Positions 1,672-62,924 of a stretch of 64,000 nucleotides of DNA are shown here, in pieces; the first letter of the stretch is position 1; each line of letters starts with the position of its first letter. The position numbers and the translations under genes are program-made. This stretch comes from a virus (Duplodnaviria > Caudoviricetes). The notes beneath the pieces were generated by a model that saw only the letters and a list, made by a program, of their open reading frames with translations, searched no databases and had not been told where the DNA came from. Where the stretch lies: the IMG/VR virus record IMGVR_UViG_3300029288_000097, positions 49,977 to 113,976 of that record. The stretch is one strand, 5' to 3'.

Positions 1672-4600
1672 ATGGCAGAAACACTGTTAGCAATGGCCCG
1701 AGCATTACCGCTCTTGCTCGAAGACCAAGGGATTAAGAAACGTAAAGACGTTAGCCCCAAGGAAGGCGAGAAAGAATACGGTGATGTGACCTTTGCTGAT
1801 CCAACGAACAAGAAGTATCCGTTGGATTCTGAGAAGCACGTCAAGGCTGCCTGGAGCTATATTAACATGCCTCGGAATGCAGGTAAGTATAGTTCCAAGG
1901 ACTTGGGTGCTATCAAGGGCCGAATCAAAAGAGCTGCCAAGAAGTTCGGAGTTGCTATATCGGAAGATCAGGACTTCGGTTATGATATTCCGATAACCCA
2001 GGATCATTACCACTTGTATGGTTCGGTGGAAGATGTCCTTACCCGTATCAATCTGGCGTTTCACCAGTGGAGACGCACGCTAGAAAGTGAGATCGAGTAT
2101 CGTTACAGCTCAATACTGGGCGTTTACACCGATCATATCGTTTTCTACACAGATAATTGGCGGGAGGGATTGATCTACTACACAGTCAGCTATACGGTTG
2201 ACACCACCAATGGGAGTGTCACCATTCTCAATGACGTTAATCGCGTGGATGTGACTGTGATAGTTACCGATCTTGCCAGTGTTGGTGACGATGGGGATGG
2301 CAATGCTCCAACTCAAACCGCTACGGAGGACAAAGCGATGGCTGAGGACAAGAAAACCCCAGAAGTCGAAGCACAGGATGGAAGTACCAGCACGACAGTT
2401 GTTAAGACTGATGCCCCTGTGGGTACCAGTGCTGACAGCCCGACTGTTGAACAGCCTAAGACTGATGCTTCGTCTGCTGGACCATCCGTACCGGATGCCT
2501 CAACTGAGGCCACCAGCGGCTCTCCGGTCGAGAAGTCTGATGACATTCCGGTCGGTCCGAGCGGTAGCGATGGTAGCAGCACCGGCACGGTAGCGGGTGC
2601 ACTCTCTGATGGTGGAGCTGGCACAAAGCAAGCACAGGAGTTCGAGGGCAAAGACGAGTTCTTTGTTCAATCGGATAACTATGATGCTGCAAACCAGCCC
2701 ATGAGTTACATCAAACTCCAAGCAGTCGAGGAGAAAGATGGTAAAAAACTCATGACCATCCAAGGCATTGCCACTAGGGGTGACATTGTGAACTCCAAGG
2801 GGCAGGTCTACCCAACCGAAGTATGGCAAGAAAACTTGCCGAGAATGAACGAATTGGCAACTCAAGGTAAGTTCCTTGGGAAGCTGGAACATCCGAAAGT
2901 TGAGCAAGGGCTGGTTGACGCTGCTCTTAAGTTCAACAAGTTCTGGATACAGAACAATGACGTTTGGTTTGAGGCAGTAGTTATGCCTACGGAACCGGAC
3001 GGCAAGAATCTGCAGACCATGATCGAATCGGGTGTGCAGGTTGATCTTAGCTCTCGTGGCTATGGTCAATTTGTTCAGTGTGATTGGCGCGGAAAGCAGC
3101 GACAAGTCATGCAAAAAGGCTTCATCTGCACAGCTATCGATGCTGTATGGATGGGTGCCAGCACCGGTTCCGGTGTAACAAGCGTCACATATCAAAGCGA
3201 CTCAAAAACGGTCGCGGATCAAGGAGACAGTCCAGTGGACAAAGAGAAGAAGGACGAAACCCAGGTTCAGTCTGCTGAGGATCGTGCAGCAGCTATCCGA
3301 GCAAAGGGTGCCTTCGATGAGACTAAAAAGTGCCTCCTTCAGCAGTCCGGCCTTAGCACGGACGGGCAGAGGGCATATCAGGCCGCCCTTGATAAGGCGA
3401 CCGATGGTAGCATTGAGTCTCTGATGGGTGCATCCGATGCAATCTTGCCGAGTTTACAGTCGGTATTCCCGGTAACTCAGTCTGAGACGACCGAGGAAGC
3501 CGCAACTCAGTCCGAGACCTACTCTCCGGTATTCTTCTCCAAGCAGAATGCCGAGGAGTTGGCACCGAAGACAGTTGGCGAGATGATCGACAGAATGGTA
3601 CGCGACCTGCCGGAGCGTTATGAGGGTCAGTCTGATCCGGTGCATAAGGTGCCTTCACACCTTACCAGCCCGAGAGAAGCCTGCCGTCTGATGCTTCAGA
3701 ATGTCGCTCGACTTACTGCGCCTTCATTCCATGGCCCATCCGCAGCTCGCGGACTCTTGGCCCTGGAACAGGGCAAGATTGACAGAGCACAGGACATCCT
3801 CACTCAGGGTGCCGAGTATGCTCTGCAGTCACTTCCAACCGGAGCAACTACGGTTGCTGGAGACGGTGCTCCGCTCTCCAATTATCTGATCTTCCCGCTC
3901 ATTCGCCGGGTGTTCCCGCAGTACATCCTGAACGAGATCGCTTCGATCCAGCCTATGGATAGGCCGAACGGTAAGATTTTCTGGCTTGACCAGTATCGAA
4001 CCGAAGACCCGTCTGCAGGTGAGGTCACCCGAATCGATCTCAACACATCGTCCAGCCCGTTCAATACGAGCTATGCCGATCAGGACACTGAAGGCGAAAC
4101 TGCCAAGATCATCCGCATGAAACTGTCCAGTCAGTTGATCGAAGCGCATACCAAGAAATTGGGTGCAGCCTGGTCAATTGAAGAGATGCAGGATTTGAGA
4201 GCCTATCATGGTCTCGATGCTGCACAGGAGCTTCTTGCAGGTGTGGCACGTGAGCTGGCATTGGAGATCAATGCTGAAGTTCTCAACGACATGATTCTTC
4301 AGGCTTCCGCTGGAGCCCTGGAGTTTGGAACCACAATGCCGACAACTGGTTTTGATAACCAGCCGGAGTGGGATGCTTACATCTGGAACTATGTGTCCAA
4401 GATGGAAAACATCATCTTCAGCAAGCGCAACGGTGGGATCACTCACCTGATCTGCGGTATGGACGCCGCTCTCGCTCTCGCTAAGTCGAACCGAATGGCA
4501 ATCTCGGTTGCCACTGGTGGCGATGGTGCAATGAACGAGCAGTATCCGGGTGTGGCCGTCATGAATCTGGTTTCTGGCACCGGTCAGAGATACCGTATTC

Positions 4601-57512: not shown

Positions 57513-58096
57513 TACACAAACTCGGTATAACCATCGGCGAAGAGGAACACGTCCTCACACATGAGCATTTGCTCAACATGATGGGTGAAGCATATGAATG
57601 GATGGTTGCCAACATCAATACTTACGGCGAGTGGACGATGTACTTTGGATGGAATCCCGTGAAATCCGAGTTCACTGTTTACTCAGCTCTACCGAAGGGT
57701 TCATCCATAGAGTCTCTTGTAGCCATAACCACAGACTTGAAGGCTCCGATCCGCTGGGCCGGGACCATATTCAACGAGCTATGGGATCGTGAGTTTCCAC
57801 TGCACGTCAAAATGAAGTCGCTGCAGGCACAGTCTCAGACCTGTGGAGAACTGCTCGAATGGCTGCACGACACCAAGGGCATTTTGTTTGCCAAGTATCA
57901 TGAGCATACAGATGACTGCTATGACGAAGAAATATGTCCACCACTCTTCAAAGACTCCCGGCCACCATACTGCGGCATGTCCGATCAGATGGTATACCCG
58001 ATCAACACACAGGTGACCGACTTGCTGCACGAGTTCTTCGGCATTGACCGGAAGGCTTTTGATCGTGAGAAGCAGAGAATGTTGGACACACTATGA
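57509..58096 (+). CDS. hypothetical protein
   Basis: ATGA coupling; SQTCGELLEWL and LLHEFFGID..AFDREK motifs. Confidence 0.7.
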   Translation: MIHKLGITIGEEEHVLTHEHLLNMMGEAYEWMVANINTYGEWTMYFGWNPVKSEFTVYSALPKGSSIESLVAITTDLKAPIRWAGTIFNELWDREFPLHVKMKSLQAQSQTCGELLEWLHDTKGILFAKYHEHTDDCYDEEICPPLFKDSRPPYCGMSDQMVYPINTQVTDLLHEFFGIDRKAFDREKQRMLDTL

Positions 58097-58770
58097 TAAC
58101 ATTCAAGGCCAATATGGTAGCTATAGAGCTGACACGTAGGTGTAACATGGCATGTGGGCACTGTATGCGAGGTGATCCACAACCTATCGACCTTGACCCG
58201 GCATATCTTGGGCCGTTCTTTCGACAGATCGACTTCATAGATACATTGGTTTTGTCAGGTGGAGAACCATCACTGGTGCCGGAGATCATAACAGCTGTTA
58301 AGCAGGCACTTAACGATGCTTGCACCAAAGTCTATTCGCTTGAGATTGTAACGAATGGAAAGGTTGTATCTGTTCCGTTCATCAATGCACTTGCAACGTT
58401 GGATATAGCCTCCACTTATAATCTTGCCTATGGTGGGATATACCATGAAGAAGTTCCGAAAGTAAACATAAAAAGACTGAAGAACAATCTTTGCCCGAAG
58501 TGGACTGTGCATCCACAGGGCATTCATGGGAAGTTTTTAAGTAAGCAGGGTCGATCTAAGGAAGGCACGGAGCCGGACTTATATAGTCCATTTCTGATCT
58601 CGACATTACACTCGACCTATGTCACTGGACGACCAGTGTACCTGAATGCTGAGGGTTTTATAGTCCCGCATTGTGACTTATCATATGAGAACCAGGCCAA
58701 GCATATAATGTGCCGGGCTGATGAATCCATATTTGATGCTGTGGTGGCATTTAATACGAGGGTAGAGTAA
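58093..58770 (+). CDS. radical SAM protein
   Basis: IELTRRCNMACGHC (CxxxCxxC), SGGEPSL, VTNG. Confidence 0.85.
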   Translation: MITFKANMVAIELTRRCNMACGHCMRGDPQPIDLDPAYLGPFFRQIDFIDTLVLSGGEPSLVPEIITAVKQALNDACTKVYSLEIVTNGKVVSVPFINALATLDIASTYNLAYGGIYHEEVPKVNIKRLKNNLCPKWTVHPQGIHGKFLSKQGRSKEGTEPDLYSPFLISTLHSTYVTGRPVYLNAEGFIVPHCDLSYENQAKHIMCRADESIFDAVVAFNTRVE

Positions 58771-60877: not shown

Positions 60878-61127
60878 TTGGGGTAGTTTTCCACGGTCAG
60901 ATGTTCTTAAATACATAGCCTGCCACGGTCAATCACGTGTAAGGGTCGTATGCTGTGAGTGTCAATGCGAGCAGGACTTTTACCTGTGGTCTATGGCCGG
61001 GCATGGAGTAGGAAAGTGCAAGGGCTGTGGTGTAGCGATCTCATATCATGGGTATCATACGGTGCCTGCTGACCTCTATAATGAGGTTCACAAAGATCGC
61101 AAGAAAAAAATCACTAAAACCACTTGA
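60843..61127 (+). CDS. zinc-finger protein
   Basis: CCEC ... CKGC. Confidence 0.5.
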   Translation: MPVSPFVVPVIDWGSFPRSDVLKYIACHGQSRVRVVCCECQCEQDFYLWSMAGHGVGKCKGCGVAISYHGYHTVPADLYNEVHKDRKKKITKTT

Positions 61128-61152
61128 CACGGTAGTGATATGGTGTTATGAT
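61124..61152 (+). promoter_or_regulatory. strong sigma70-type promoter of the Y RNA/Ro60 operon
   Basis: TTGACA-17-TATGAT; predicted +1 coincides with the first RNA stem (about 61158). Confidence 0.8.
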
Positions 61153-61157
61153 ATGTT

Positions 61158-61291
61158 TGGTGGTGACCACGAGACGGTTACTTCGCTTTGGGAGCGCGTG
61201 GTCGCAGGTTCGAGTCCTGTTGGGGTCCACATGGACCCTATAGCTCAGTTGGTAGAGCGCGTAAACTTTCCGTCTCACCTTTATCCCACCA
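61158..61291 (+). ncRNA. YrlA-like Y RNA containing a circularly permuted tRNA-Pro(UGG)-like domain
   Basis: Outer stem TGGTGG/CCACCA, inner GAGACGG/CCGTCTC; anticodon arm CGC-TTTGGGA-GCG, T arm GCAGG-TTCGAGT-CCTGT, closed acceptor TGGGGTCC-acat-GGACCCTA, D arm GCTC-AGTTGGTA-GAGC; upstream of Ro60. Confidence 0.8.
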
Positions 61292-61304: not shown

Positions 61305-61418
61305 TGCCGGTGACCAGAAGAGGGTTACTTCGTCCAATTGGTAGGACATCAGTCTACTAAACTGAATGTTGCAGGTTCAAGTCCTGTAGTGTTATTCCCT
61401 CTTCAGCTTTTCCCGGCA
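61305..61418 (+). ncRNA. Y-RNA-like RNA with D, anticodon (ACT) and T arms; acceptor stem replaced by the scaffold stem
   Basis: TGCCGG/CCGGCA, GAAGAGGG/CCCTCTTC; GTCC-AATTGGTA-GGAC; TCAGT-CTACTAA-ACTGA; GCAGG-TTCAAGT-CCTGT. Confidence 0.75.
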
Positions 61419-61423
61419 TTATT

Positions 61424-61489
61424 TTTGCTGATGACCAGTGCAGAGCTACTTCGTGCATTTGAATACTCTGTTCAATTTAACTCAGCAAA
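61424..61489 (+). ncRNA. minimal Y-RNA-like module abutting the Ro60 RBS
   Basis: TTTGCTGA/TCAGCAAA and CAGAG/CTCTG stems with the same TGACCA and TACTTCG motifs as the two preceding RNAs. Confidence 0.6.
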
Positions 61490-61502: not shown

Positions 61503-62924
61503 ATGGCTAAGTTCAACACTGCACCTGTCGATAGGAGCAAAACCATCAACCGAGCTGGCGGTCCGGCTTATGCGAAGTCTACTAAGCTGGAACTTGTCAG
61601 CTTTTTGCTGACCTCATTTGTCAAGGATCAGTTCTACCGATCTGCGGATCAGGGATTGAAAGCCTTGACCAATCTGGTTGCAGACAATCCTCTGTTCGCA
61701 GCGAAGGCAGCGATCTATGCCCGGACTCAGTTCGGTATGCGTAGTGTATCGCATGCAGTTGCAGTCGATCTGATGGAGTTTGCAAAAGGCCATGCGTGGG
61801 CAAAGCGATTCTATGATCGCGTGATCTTTCGACCTGATGATATGACTGAGATTCGATCTCTGTATCAGACCAGGACCAAGAAGAATGGTTTGCCTCACGC
61901 AGTCAGCAAGGGCTTTGCTGCGGCCTTGACCAGGTTCGACGCTTATCAGCTTGGTAAGTATCGAGGTGAGGGCAAGGGCGTGTCTCTTGTAGACATCGTG
62001 AACTATGTTCACCCTCAGCATTCGGAAGCACTGCAGGCTCTTGTAAAAGATGAACTGCGGGCGACTGGCACCTGGGAGTCCAAGTTGACTCAGGCTGGGC
62101 AGCAGGGTAGTGATGAAGAGGAAGTCAAATCGCTCAAGCGTGATGCGTGGGCCGAGCTGATCTCTTCAAAGAAGTTGGGCTACTTTGCATTGCTGAGGAA
62201 CTTGCGAAACATCATCGAGCAGGCACCGGAGTGTGTAGACGCTGCATGTGCTATGCTTGTTGATGAGAAGCTGATTCGGAAGTCATTGGTTATGCCGTTC
62301 AGGTATCAGACTGCAGCTGATGAGATCAGGAAGTTGGGTGGTTCCAATACCCGTCCGGTTCTTAAGGCTCTGAATGAGGCCGTGGATAAGTCTGTAGCCA
62401 ATGTTCCGAGGTTTGATGGTCGAACTTTGATAGCGTTGGATGGAAGCGGATCGATGAGTGACGTTCTTGCAATCGCTACTCTGTTCGCCGCTGTGCTCTA
62501 TAAGTCTCAGGATGCAGACTGTATAATCTACAGTGATTCTGCGGAACAACATAGCTACACTGTCGAGGATTCGACTCTGACTATCGCTTCTCAGATGAGC
62601 AAGGACTGTCCTATGAGCAGCACTGATTTCAGTGCAGTATTCAGACTGATGACTGAGCCCTATGATCGGGTTATCTTTTTGTCTGACATGCAGTCCTGGG
62701 TAAATAGCCGGGGCATTCCGACTTACTTTAACAGGTATGTCGAGAAGATCGGTAAGAGACCGAAGCTATACTCTTGGGATTTGAGCGGGTATGGCACTCT
62801 GGAGTTCCCGGAGCGTGATGTTTACGCTCTGTCCGGCTTCTCAGAGAAGGTTTTTGATCTGATGAAGCTGCTCGAAACCGATAGAAATGCTATGGTGCAC
62901 GCTATTGAGGAAATAGAGCTGTGA
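61503..62924 (+). CDS. Ro60/Rsr-like TROVE-domain RNA-binding protein with C-terminal vWA domain
   Basis: NRAGGPAY, DQFY, YARTQFGMRS, FDAYQLGKY, TWE..L, MIDAS-like DGSGSM, ALLRNLRN, FLSDMQ, GFSEKVF; AGGAG RBS before ATG 61503. Confidence 0.92.
   Translation: MAKFNTAPVDRSKTINRAGGPAYAKSTKLELVSFLLTSFVKDQFYRSADQGLKALTNLVADNPLFAAKAAIYARTQFGMRSVSHAVAVDLMEFAKGHAWAKRFYDRVIFRPDDMTEIRSLYQTRTKKNGLPHAVSKGFAAALTRFDAYQLGKYRGEGKGVSLVDIVNYVHPQHSEALQALVKDELRATGTWESKLTQAGQQGSDEEEVKSLKRDAWAELISSKKLGYFALLRNLRNIIEQAPECVDAACAMLVDEKLIRKSLVMPFRYQTAADEIRKLGGSNTRPVLKALNEAVDKSVANVPRFDGRTLIALDGSGSMSDVLAIATLFAAVLYKSQDADCIIYSDSAEQHSYTVEDSTLTIASQMSKDCPMSSTDFSAVFRLMTEPYDRVIFLSDMQSWVNSRGIPTYFNRYVEKIGKRPKLYSWDLSGYGTLEFPERDVYALSGFSEKVFDLMKLLETDRNAMVHAIEEIEL

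What the first reader, a model, noticed from the sequence alone, without database searches (positions are those of the whole stretch)
61158..61291. Y RNA containing a complete circularly permuted tRNA-Pro(UGG), anticodon arm included
Seen: the order is anticodon arm, variable loop, T arm, acceptor stem closed by an ACAT loop, then D arm. Joining ...GAGC-G-CG (61256-61262) to CGC-TTTGGGA-GCGCG (61184-61198) rebuilds a perfect CGCGC/GCGCG anticodon stem with UGG and G37, and a 7-bp acceptor GACCCTA/TGGGGTC. The scaffold stem is effectively inserted between tRNA positions 28 and 29, and the RNA ends in CCACCA. Known: YrlA RNAs beside Ro60 have T, acceptor and D arms, but canonically no anticodon loop. 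Inference: an anticodon-displaying tRNA mimic that could decoy anticodon nucleases, or an evolutionary intermediate between tRNA and YrlA. Processing into a real tRNA is less likely.
Basis: partly seen in the sequence, partly recalled or inferred. Interest (0 to 1): 0.82.

Follow-up and report, generated by a model that had tools for sequence, protein, structure and literature searches.

The report
Y RNA carrying a true anticodon arm
This phage RNA, which partners the Ro60 protein, contains a back-to-front tRNA that keeps a textbook anticodon arm; more than 100 relatives in phages and bacteria do the same with 24 different anticodons, although the papers I could read describe these RNAs as lacking an anticodon loop.

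Summary
Window 61158-61291 is the first of three tandem Y RNAs. They sit between a near-consensus promoter and a phage Ro60 (TROVE) gene.

It is a YrlA-type Y RNA. A Ro60-type stem carries a circularly permuted tRNA-like module in the order T arm, loop-closed acceptor stem, D arm. The module also has a 3-bp hairpin with the 7-nt loop UUUGGGA. Two further pairs (61197-98 with 61260-61) complete a 5-bp anticodon stem. After re-joining in silico, ARAGORN calls a perfect tRNA-Pro(UGG).

The layout is common, not unique.
- I parsed 113 non-redundant homologs from viral and bacterial contigs, and 70 have the perfect split stem. About 22 are expected after partner shuffling.
- The split stem covaries.
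- The loops obey tRNA rules: U33, purine 37, A38, and G37 only after G36.
- They carry 24 different anticodons.
- Acceptor ends do not track the anticodon, so only the loop looks authentic.

The hairpin is almost certainly the "V" stem-loop that Chen et al. (2014) read as a variable arm. Rfam's YrlA model does not include it.

This is a new member of a known family, with a probably new reading of one arm. The function, decoy or competitor for anticodon-reading enzymes, is inferred and untested. The scan has noted other Y RNA variants before on other DNA.

The parts
61124..61152 (+). Sigma-70-type promoter: TTGACA, 17-nt spacer, TG-TATGAT. The expected start falls at about 61158-61160, the first bases of the RNA.
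   Evidence: 11 of 12 matches with an extended -10. Position seen in the sequence.
61158..61291 (+). Y RNA 1 (the finding): a YrlA-type Y RNA with a permuted tRNA-like module that includes an anticodon arm.
61158..61183 (+). 5' half of the scaffold: outer stem strand TGGTGG (61158-63), motif GGTGACCA (61162-69), inner stem strand GAGACGG (61171-77), conserved junction motif GTTACTT (61177-83, contains YUAY = TTAC).
   Evidence: The same plan with different, compensating stem sequences is seen in Y RNAs 2 and 3. GTTACTTCG recurs in homologs.
61184..61198 (+). Anticodon arm, 3' side of the split. Stem 29-31 CGC, loop 32-38 TTTGGGA (anticodon TGG at 61189-91, G37, A38), stem 39-41 GCG, then C42 G43.
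61199..61220 (+). Class-I-type variable loop TGGTC (61199-203) and T arm GCAGG-TTCGAGT-CCTGT (61204-20).
61221..61240 (+). Acceptor stem closed into a hairpin: TGGGGTC+C, loop ACAT, G+GACCCTA.
   Evidence: The stem covaries in homologs, 95-98% paired.
61241..61261 (+). TA (positions 8-9), D arm GCTC-AGTTGGTA-GAGC (61243-58), G26, then C27 G28 (61260-61), which pair with 61198-97.
61262..61291 (+). 3' half of the scaffold: linker TAAACTTT, inner stem strand CCGTCTC (61270-76), pyrimidine-rich bulge, outer stem strand CCACCA (61286-91).
61305..61418 (+). Y RNA 2. Same scaffold, but the cargo is a tRNA-like module in normal order: D arm, anticodon arm with loop CTACTAA, T arm. It is joined through a truncated acceptor stem.
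   Evidence: Rfam tRNA 48 bits, model positions 5-66. Fold. ARAGORN pseudo-call tRNA-Ser(ACT).
61426..61487 (+). Y RNA 3: scaffold only, no tRNA-like cargo. It ends 15 nt before the Ro60 start codon.
61503..62924 (+). Ro60/Rsr-like protein gene, 473 aa, TROVE domain.

Best explanation
What it is (shown). This is a YrlA-class Y RNA of an uncultured 114-kb phage, the first of three Y RNAs apparently co-transcribed with the phage Ro60 gene. A bulged stem of the kind that Ro60 binds carries a circularly permuted tRNA-like module. Besides the T arm, closed acceptor stem and D arm known from YrlA, the module keeps a full anticodon arm. That arm is a 3-bp hairpin stacked on a 2-bp helix formed with the two bases behind the D arm. 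The scaffold therefore leaves the anticodon stem between positions 28 and 29 through a three-way junction. The 7-nt loop has the form of a tRNA-Pro(UGG) loop.

How it most likely works (inferred). Ro60 holds the stem. The module folds into a tRNA-like L and shows an authentic anticodon loop to proteins that read tRNA anticodon loops. It would act as a decoy or competitor, most plausibly for host anticodon nucleases and possibly also for position-34/37 modification enzymes. It cannot itself be used in translation.

Phages appear to carry panels of such RNAs with different anticodons.
For: Identity:
- A TROVE gene lies directly downstream on the same strand.
- Rfam YrlA matches at E 9e-8.
- Three sister RNAs have compensating stems.
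- The promoter is at 61124-52.

Anticodon arm:
- ARAGORN calls tRNA-Pro after in-silico re-joining. It calls all 70 re-joined homologs as tRNAs.
- 70 of 104 homologs have a perfect split stem, against 21.8 +/- 3.4 and 3.2 in the two controls.
- The closing pairs are 97.3% paired with 55 double-sided changes.
- Pair types at 27:43, 28:42 and 31:39 vary in step.

Authentic loop:
- U33 in 68 of 70, purine 37 in 70 of 70, A38 in 67 of 70.
- G37 follows 18 of 20 G36 and 0 of 50 other bases. The same direction is seen in 555 real tRNAs from the same loci (68 of 123 against 18 of 432).
- There are 24 anticodons.
- In all 5 loci with two such RNAs, the paralogs differ in anticodon.

Not a variable arm:
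- A normal 4-5-nt variable loop (AGGTC/TGGTC) follows positions 42-43.
- L046 has the hairpin plus a separate 14-nt variable region.

Context from the literature:
- YrlA is modified by tRNA enzymes (PMC4201824).
- Hughes et al. proposed that the YrlA tRNA-like domain might competitively inhibit an anticodon nuclease (PMC7790460).
Against: - No expression, Ro60-binding, modification or nuclease data exist for this RNA.
- About half of the YrlA-like RNAs in an unbiased sample of annotated phage Ro60 loci lack the hairpin, and so does Salmonella YrlA. The arm is therefore not needed for the core Ro60/Y RNA function.
- The anticodon is not conserved between close relatives: UGG here, UUG in L001.
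- Three of the four nearest Ro60 relatives have no such RNA.
- I know of no anticodon nuclease specific for tRNA-Pro.
- The sample was collected with a motif (GTTACTTCG) that fixes two bases of the hairpin's 5' strand. At pairs 29:41 and 30:40 it therefore shows complementarity but little covariation.
- The thermodynamic MFE fold (-50 kcal/mol) differs from the cloverleaf-type fold (-42 kcal/mol).
Confidence: 0.5

Rival explanations
1. Structural hairpin only. The arm is an inherited piece of the ancestral tRNA, or a generic 'V' stem-loop, that stabilises the fold or the junction. Its loop sequence has no reader.
For: - Many YrlA-like RNAs do without it.
- The anticodon differs between related phages.
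- Chen et al. call it 'less-conserved'.
- U33 and purine 37 are also what a stable U-turn loop needs.
Against: - A purely structural loop would not couple G37 to G36 across 9 different G36 anticodons while keeping A37 in 15 others.
- It would not keep exactly 7 nt, U33 and A38 while the three middle bases change freely into 24 triplets.
- Paralogs in one locus always differ, which looks like diversification rather than drift.
Confidence: 0.25
2. Precursor of a working tRNA or ribosome-engaging RNA. RNase P opens the acceptor loop and CCA is added, as shown for M. smegmatis YrlA. This would give a two-piece, chargeable tRNA held together by the Y stem. Alternatively the scaffold is cut out and the ends are ligated.
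For: - After re-joining, every module passes ARAGORN.
- M. smegmatis YrlA is cut by RNase P and receives CCA (PMC4201824).
- The G36/G37 and U36/A37 rules are, in real tRNAs, tied to decoding.
Against: - Discriminator base and first acceptor pair show no relation to the anticodon.
- RNAs with Ser and Leu anticodons lack the long variable arm.
- Acceptor stems range from 5 to 9 bp. Here an 8-bp stem is closed by only 4 nt.
- The phage has no RtcB, Rnl2-type ligase or CCA-adding enzyme.
- A long helix leaving the anticodon stem at 28/29 would probably clash on the ribosome (inference).
- The junction is not a bulge-helix-bulge splice motif.
Confidence: 0.08
3. Not a Y RNA at all: a decayed pair of tandem tRNA genes, or a chance resemblance.
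For: BLAST of the element also matches junctions of adjacent tRNA genes in phages, where the 3' half of one tRNA plus the 5' half of the next gives the same order of arms.
Against: - The acceptor strands are joined by a 4-nt loop and pair with each other.
- The flanks form the conserved Ro60-type scaffold shared with two sister RNAs.
- The element sits at a promoter upstream of Ro60.
- The design is conserved with covariation in more than 100 loci.
Confidence: 0.02

Closest known systems
YrlA (Y RNA-like A) of Salmonella Typhimurium, M. smegmatis and mycobacteriophages (Chen et al. 2014, PMC4201824; Wang et al. 2018, doi 10.1101/312249; Rfam RF02553)
   Same: - Encoded next to and on the same strand as Ro60/Rsr.
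- A Ro60-type stem carries a tRNA-like module in the order T arm, loop-closed acceptor stem, D arm.
- Conserved YUAY at the junction.
- Near-invariant D and T arms.
- Mycobacteriophage HyRo's YrlA has the same hairpin (CTC-ATTGAAA-GAG plus AG:CT).
   Different: - The solved and Rfam-modelled Salmonella type has no hairpin, and the 2018 paper states that YrlA lacks the anticodon loop.
- Where a fourth stem-loop was seen, it was labelled 'V' and equated with the variable arm.
- Here the data show a split 5-bp anticodon stem with a canonical 7-nt loop.
- This RNA scores below Rfam's gathering cut-off (41.4 against 69 bits).
Deinococcus radiodurans Yrn1 (Chen et al. 2014)
   Same: A Ro60-bound Y RNA with tRNA-like features and a possible 'anticodon arm' with a 5-bp stem.
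   Different: In Yrn1 the arms are in the normal tRNA order, the loop has 6 nt and the D arm is incomplete. It resembles Y RNA 2 of this locus (61305-61418) rather than the finding.
Circularly permuted tRNA genes of the red alga Cyanidioschyzon merolae (own knowledge: Soma et al. 2007)
   Same: The 3' half of the tRNA precedes the 5' half, and the acceptor ends are joined by a short linker.
   Different: Those genes are matured through a circular intermediate into working tRNAs and use a bulge-helix-bulge junction. Here the junction is a long Ro60-type stem, and the acceptor ends show no amino-acid identity.
Phage-encoded tRNAs that offset host tRNA-cleaving defences (own knowledge, not read here), and the proposal that YrlA competes with an anticodon nuclease (Hughes et al. 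2020, PMC7790460)
   Same: A phage-supplied RNA with an authentic anticodon loop could meet the same host enzymes.
   Different: Those are ordinary, chargeable tRNAs. This RNA has a closed acceptor end and is tied to Ro60.
tmRNA and plant-virus tRNA-like structures
   Same: Non-tRNA molecules that copy the tRNA L-shape.
   Different: They keep a free CCA end and are charged, and they lack a true anticodon loop. This RNA is the reverse: closed acceptor, true anticodon loop.

Membership tests
YrlA-type Y RNA | Encoded close to, and on the same strand as, a Ro60/TROVE gene | tested here: met
   The TROVE gene is at 61503-62924 (+), 212 nt downstream. 23 of 32 bacterial loci with such RNAs also have Ro60 within 8 kb.
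YrlA-type Y RNA | tRNA-like module in the order T arm, loop-closed acceptor-like stem, D arm, with conserved D and T sequences | tested here: met
YrlA-type Y RNA | Conserved YUAY between scaffold and module | tested here: met
   TTAC at 61178-81 lies inside GTTACTTCG, which recurs in homologs.
YrlA-type Y RNA | 5' motif GNCGAAN0-1G thought to contact Rsr (Chen et al. 2014) | tested here: inconclusive
   The 5' strand has GGTGACCA (61162-69), shared by all three sister RNAs. It only loosely fits the published motif.
YrlA-type Y RNA | Score at or above Rfam RF02553 gathering cut-off | tested here: not met
   41.4 bits against 69, E 9e-8. The model has no positions for the hairpin and aligns that region badly.
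YrlA-type Y RNA | Expressed and bound by Ro60 | not testable with these tools
No binding data.
tRNA (functional) | Contiguous cloverleaf with free 5' and 3' acceptor ends | tested here: not met
   The arms are permuted and the acceptor strands are joined by ACAT. No Rfam tRNA or ARAGORN call on the native sequence.
tRNA (functional) | 5-bp anticodon stem and 7-nt loop with U33 and purine 37 | tested here: met
tRNA (functional) | Acceptor-end and body identity elements that match the anticodon | tested here: not met
   Across homologs the discriminator and the 1:72 pair are unrelated to the anticodon. Ser and Leu anticodons occur without a long variable arm. For this RNA, position 73 is C and 1:72 is G:C.
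Permuted tRNA gene (algal type) | Bulge-helix-bulge junction allowing excision and circularisation | tested here: not met
   The junction is a 6+7-bp stem with large asymmetric internal loops and 6-nt and 8-nt linkers.

The most novel reading that the evidence does not exclude
A major subclass of Ro60-associated Y RNAs in phages and bacteria are anticodon-specific tRNA decoys or sensors. Each displays the authentic anticodon loop of one tRNA species. Phages carry panels with different anticodons, matched to the tRNAs that host anticodon nucleases or other tRNA-targeting defences attack. The Ro60 particle would protect translation or report the attack. This would give the long-unexplained tRNA-like domain of bacterial Y RNAs a concrete, testable job.
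Probability: 0.3. Interest if true: 0.8.

Novelty: new member of a known kind. Interest (0 to 1): 0.6.

Why it matters
What the tRNA-like domain of bacterial Y RNAs does has been open since 2014. The papers I could read describe YrlA as a tRNA mimic without an anticodon loop.

Here, a large share of these RNAs carry a split but complete anticodon arm. This includes RNAs of the published groups. Their loops follow the fine rules of real tRNAs and come in at least 24 anticodon identities.

That turns the open question into testable ones:
- Which anticodon-reading enzymes bind, modify or cut these RNAs?
- Does swapping the loop change phage fitness on hosts with tRNA-targeting defences?

There is also a practical point. 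Genome annotators already mislabel some of these RNAs as tRNA genes.

Tried and rejected
1. Pairing of TGGGA in the loop with TCCCA near the 3' end, as the forced Rfam alignment suggests. Rejected because it conflicts with the outer stem, which covaries among the three sister RNAs.
2. An alternative stem GTTAC/GTAAAC replacing the split anticodon stem. Rejected because it is not conserved in L001.
3. The variable-arm reading of the hairpin. Rejected because a normal variable loop follows positions 42-43, the loop is always 7 nt with U33/R37/A38, and L046 has a separate long variable region.
4. Recent origin from a tRNA-Pro gene. No close tRNA match. [quoted passage not shown]
5. Close relatives in sequenced phages. 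Megablast found none. The best Ro60 identity is 51%.
6. Phage-encoded RNA repair or CCA-adding genes. None found.
7. Plain MFE folding does not recover the cloverleaf, as is common for tRNA-like RNAs.
8. Expression check.
9. The two Wolin-lab reviews (PMC6047535, PMC10870794) were not held. I could not check whether they already call the V arm an anticodon arm.

Full report
**Setting**

The window is the last 64 kb of a 113,976-bp IMG/VR virus record rated complete. At 61503-62924 it encodes a 473-aa protein with a TROVE domain. Its nearest relatives are Ro60-like proteins of uncultured phages, at 43-51% identity.

A near-consensus promoter sits at 61124-61152: TTGACA, 17 nt, TG-TATGAT, 11 of 12 matches. 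Between it and the start codon lie three tandem RNAs built on one plan:
- an outer stem,
- the motif GGTGACCA or its like,
- an inner stem,
- the junction motif (G/C)TACTTCG,
- a cargo,
- and the return strands.

The stem sequences differ between the three RNAs but pair within each. No terminator separates them from Ro60, so a single transcript that is then processed is the simplest reading (inference).

**The finding itself**

- The hairpin is CGC, loop TTTGGGA, GCG (61184-96).
- It is followed by CG (61197-98), which pairs with the CG (61260-61) that comes one base after the D arm.
- Together these give a 5-bp stem CGCGC/GCGCG, interrupted on its 5' strand between tRNA positions 28 and 29. 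That is where the two linkers (TTACTT and TAAACTTT) lead to the scaffold.
- Then come the variable loop TGGTC, a T arm with TTCGAGT, an acceptor stem of 7 bp (one G-U) plus one extra C:G closed by ACAT, TA, and a standard D arm.

Joining 61234-61261 to 61184-61228 in silico gives a cloverleaf that ARAGORN calls tRNA-Pro(TGG). On the native sequence neither ARAGORN nor Rfam's tRNA model reports anything here.

Rfam's YrlA model matches at E 9e-8 but only 41.4 bits, against a cut-off of 69. The model has no positions for the hairpin and forces that region onto a scaffold helix.

The proposed fold has -42.2 kcal/mol against an MFE of about -50. That gap is usual for tRNA-like RNAs, whose tertiary contacts are not modelled.

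**Conservation**

L001 has a 51% identical Ro60 and again three upstream RNAs. Its first RNA has the same layout with GTC-TTTTGGA-GAC plus TA:TA. Four of the five stem pairs are changed on both sides, and the anticodon is UUG instead of UGG. The other three near relatives have only cargo-less or different RNAs.

I scanned viral contigs, and then one genome per prokaryotic species, for GTTACTTCG followed within 15-30 nt by GGTTCGA. A script selected candidates only on having the T arm, a closed acceptor stem and a D arm in permuted order. It parsed 113 non-redundant RNAs.

Of the 104 in which a hairpin window could be placed, 70 have the perfect arrangement of 3 bp, 7-nt loop, 3 bp and 2 closing pairs, and 91 have at least 4 of 5 pairs. 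Two controls give far fewer perfect cases:
- Shuffling the 3' partners between RNAs and re-optimising the register gives 21.8 +/- 3.4 (maximum 31 in 1000 shuffles).
- Shuffling the 5' segment gives 3.2 (maximum 9).

Most of the rest are register variants.
- Some split one base further down, 2+3, as in L100, L105 and L033.
- Some have intact 5-6-bp hairpins where the scaffold joins at 26/27, as in L010 and L035.

The tool counts agree.
- On a MAFFT alignment of 50 RNAs the structure is 94.4% paired against 65.8% shuffled, with a covariation score of 0.709 against 0.177 and 0 of 500 shuffles as high.
- On a covariance-model alignment of 77 distinct RNAs the closing helix is 97.3% paired, with 38 and 17 double-sided changes.

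There is a caveat. The search motif fixes C29 and G30, so those two pairs show complementarity rather than covariation. Covariation there comes from RNAs with other stems: CTC/GAG in HyRo, CCT/AGG in the Xanthomonas phage, TGC/GCA, GGT/ACC and GCT/AGC.

**The loop is an anticodon loop, not a generic loop or a variable arm**

In the 70 perfect cases U33 is present in 68, purine 37 in all 70 and A38 in 67.

G37 follows 18 of 20 G36 and none of 50 other bases. This holds across 9 different G36 anticodons and 15 others. The 555 bona fide tRNAs that ARAGORN finds in the same loci show the same direction: G37 after 68 of 123 G36, and after 18 of 432 others.

There are 24 different anticodons. GUU is the most common (16), followed by GUG, CAU, CUU and UUU (5 each). 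U36 is over-represented relative to real tRNAs.

All 70 re-joined modules are called tRNAs by ARAGORN.

Three points argue against the variable-arm reading:
- The hairpin lies 5' of the two closing bases.
- Those bases are followed by a normal class-I variable loop (AGGTC, TGGTC).
- L046 has the hairpin and, separately, a 14-nt variable region with a tRNA-Leu-like D arm.

Only the loop is authentic.
- The discriminator base and the 1:72 pair are unrelated to the anticodon.
- Acceptor stems range from 5 to 9 bp.
- Ser and Leu anticodons occur without a long variable arm.

In all five loci with two such RNAs the anticodons differ. The same holds in Xanthomonas phage 10KY502B, with CUC and UGU.

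**How general it is**

I applied the covariance model to Ro60 loci of annotated phages that were chosen by protein similarity only.

The hairpin was found in:
- mycobacteriophage HyRo,
- Gordonia phage Rabbitrun,
- Brevundimonas phage Gurke,
- Microbacterium phage Big4,
- Streptomyces phage Satis,
- two of the five Y RNAs of the Xanthomonas phage.

It was absent from other YrlA-like RNAs in the same or other phages: Xanthomonas #1, Gurke #1, csAssE-Sib and Satis #2. Roughly half carry it.

In cellular genomes it occurs in Streptosporangium, Amycolatopsis, Chitinophaga, Chryseobacterium, Bradyrhizobium, Cohnella, Acidobacteriaceae, Verrucomicrobia and others. In 23 of 32 such loci Ro60 is within 8 kb.

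**Relation to the literature**

Chen et al. 2014 defined YrlA by its T arm, D arm and acceptor-like stem. [quoted passage not shown]

In HyRo, which belongs to the mycobacteriophage group they analysed, the only stem-loop upstream of T directly follows TTAC and is the hairpin described here. Their V arm is therefore almost certainly this element. I could not see their figure or supplements, so this is an inference.

Wang et al. 2018 solved the Salmonella module and state that YrlA lacks the anticodon loop. Hughes et al. 2020 suggested that the tRNA-like domain might competitively inhibit an anticodon nuclease.

Full-text searches for YrlA or Y RNA together with anticodon found no paper that describes an anticodon arm in YrlA. 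Two reviews were not available.

**Mechanism**

Shown: the anatomy, its conservation, and the tRNA-like rules of the loop.

Inferred: Ro60 binds the scaffold, and the module folds as an L with the anticodon arm stacked under the D arm and the scaffold leaving sideways. The loop is then read by proteins that recognise tRNA anticodon loops.

I favour a decoy or competitor role towards host anticodon nucleases, with modification enzymes as possible additional readers. My reasons are:
- the loop alone is kept authentic,
- the acceptor end is closed and carries no identity,
- phages diversify the anticodon between paralogs,
- in bacteria the Ro60/Y RNA system is genetically tied to tRNA damage (PMC7790460).

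The main rival is a purely structural hairpin, favoured by its absence from many YrlAs and by the anticodon change between relatives. A processed, chargeable two-piece tRNA is unlikely. The identity elements do not match, and the phage has no RtcB, Rnl2-type ligase or CCA-adding enzyme. M. smegmatis YrlA is nevertheless cut by RNase P and receives CCA.

**Verdict**

The object is a new member of the known YrlA family, not a one-off and not an evolutionary intermediate.

The valuable part goes beyond this window. The supposed variable arm of many YrlAs is a true, split anticodon arm with diverse anticodons, and I could not find that in print.

Earlier notes of this scan on the same window (e1-5915162, e1-5915163) agree on the three-RNA layout. 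Other windows have yielded different Y RNA rearrangements.

Noticed in passing
window 61305-61418: Y RNA 2 uses the same scaffold but carries a tRNA-like module in normal order: D arm, intact anticodon arm with loop CTACTAA (ACU), T arm. It is joined through a 3-4-bp acceptor remnant. Rfam's tRNA model scores it 48 bits over positions 5-66, and ARAGORN calls it tRNA-Ser(ACT). L001 has a similar third RNA. Two opposite wirings of tRNA cargo therefore coexist in one locus.
   Followed up: partly
window 61426-61487: Y RNA 3 is scaffold only. It ends 15 nt before the Ro60 start codon, next to the ribosome-binding site GGAGA. Cargo-less RNAs with the same (G/C)TAC(T/A)TCG motif are the only Y RNAs upstream of Ro60 in L002-L004.
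   Followed up: no
G000:C1:21674-26070 (outside the window): The phage genome encodes a tmRNA (tag ANTDNSGVSQSIVDQINARDRVGSEEMLLAA), a tRNA-Asn(GTT) and a tRNA-Gln(TTG), by ARAGORN and Rfam.
   Followed up: no
L125 1458-1525 (Xanthomonas phage 10KY502B) and L126 1485-1552 (Microbacterium phage Big4): GenBank annotates parts of these Y RNAs as tRNA-Thr and tRNA-Ser(cga). ARAGORN likewise of the fetched Y RNAs as tRNAs, using the scaffold strand as a false acceptor/D region. Several other phage Ro60 genes are directly preceded by annotated 'tRNAs' that deserve re-inspection.
   Followed up: partly
L125 1000-1600: Xanthomonas phage 10KY502B has five tandem Y RNAs upstream of Ro60: one YrlA without the hairpin, two with it (CUC and UGU loops) and two cargo-less.
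   Followed up: partly
L046 ~4091-4342, L074 ~2917-3024: Some family members have a tRNA-Leu-like (class II) D arm, and one has a 14-nt variable region, combined with Pro-type loops. This suggests exchange of body parts with different tRNA genes.
   Followed up: no
window 58093-58770: A 225-aa ORF matches the radical SAM superfamily (E 5.5e-7). Its neighbours have no Pfam match. It may belong to a nucleotide-modification cluster.
   Followed up: no
one search hits H69-H76: The element's T-acceptor-D stretch aligns to junctions of adjacent tRNA genes in Vibrio, Shewanella and Acinetobacter phages. A tandem tRNA pair offers a ready route to the permuted order.
   Followed up: no
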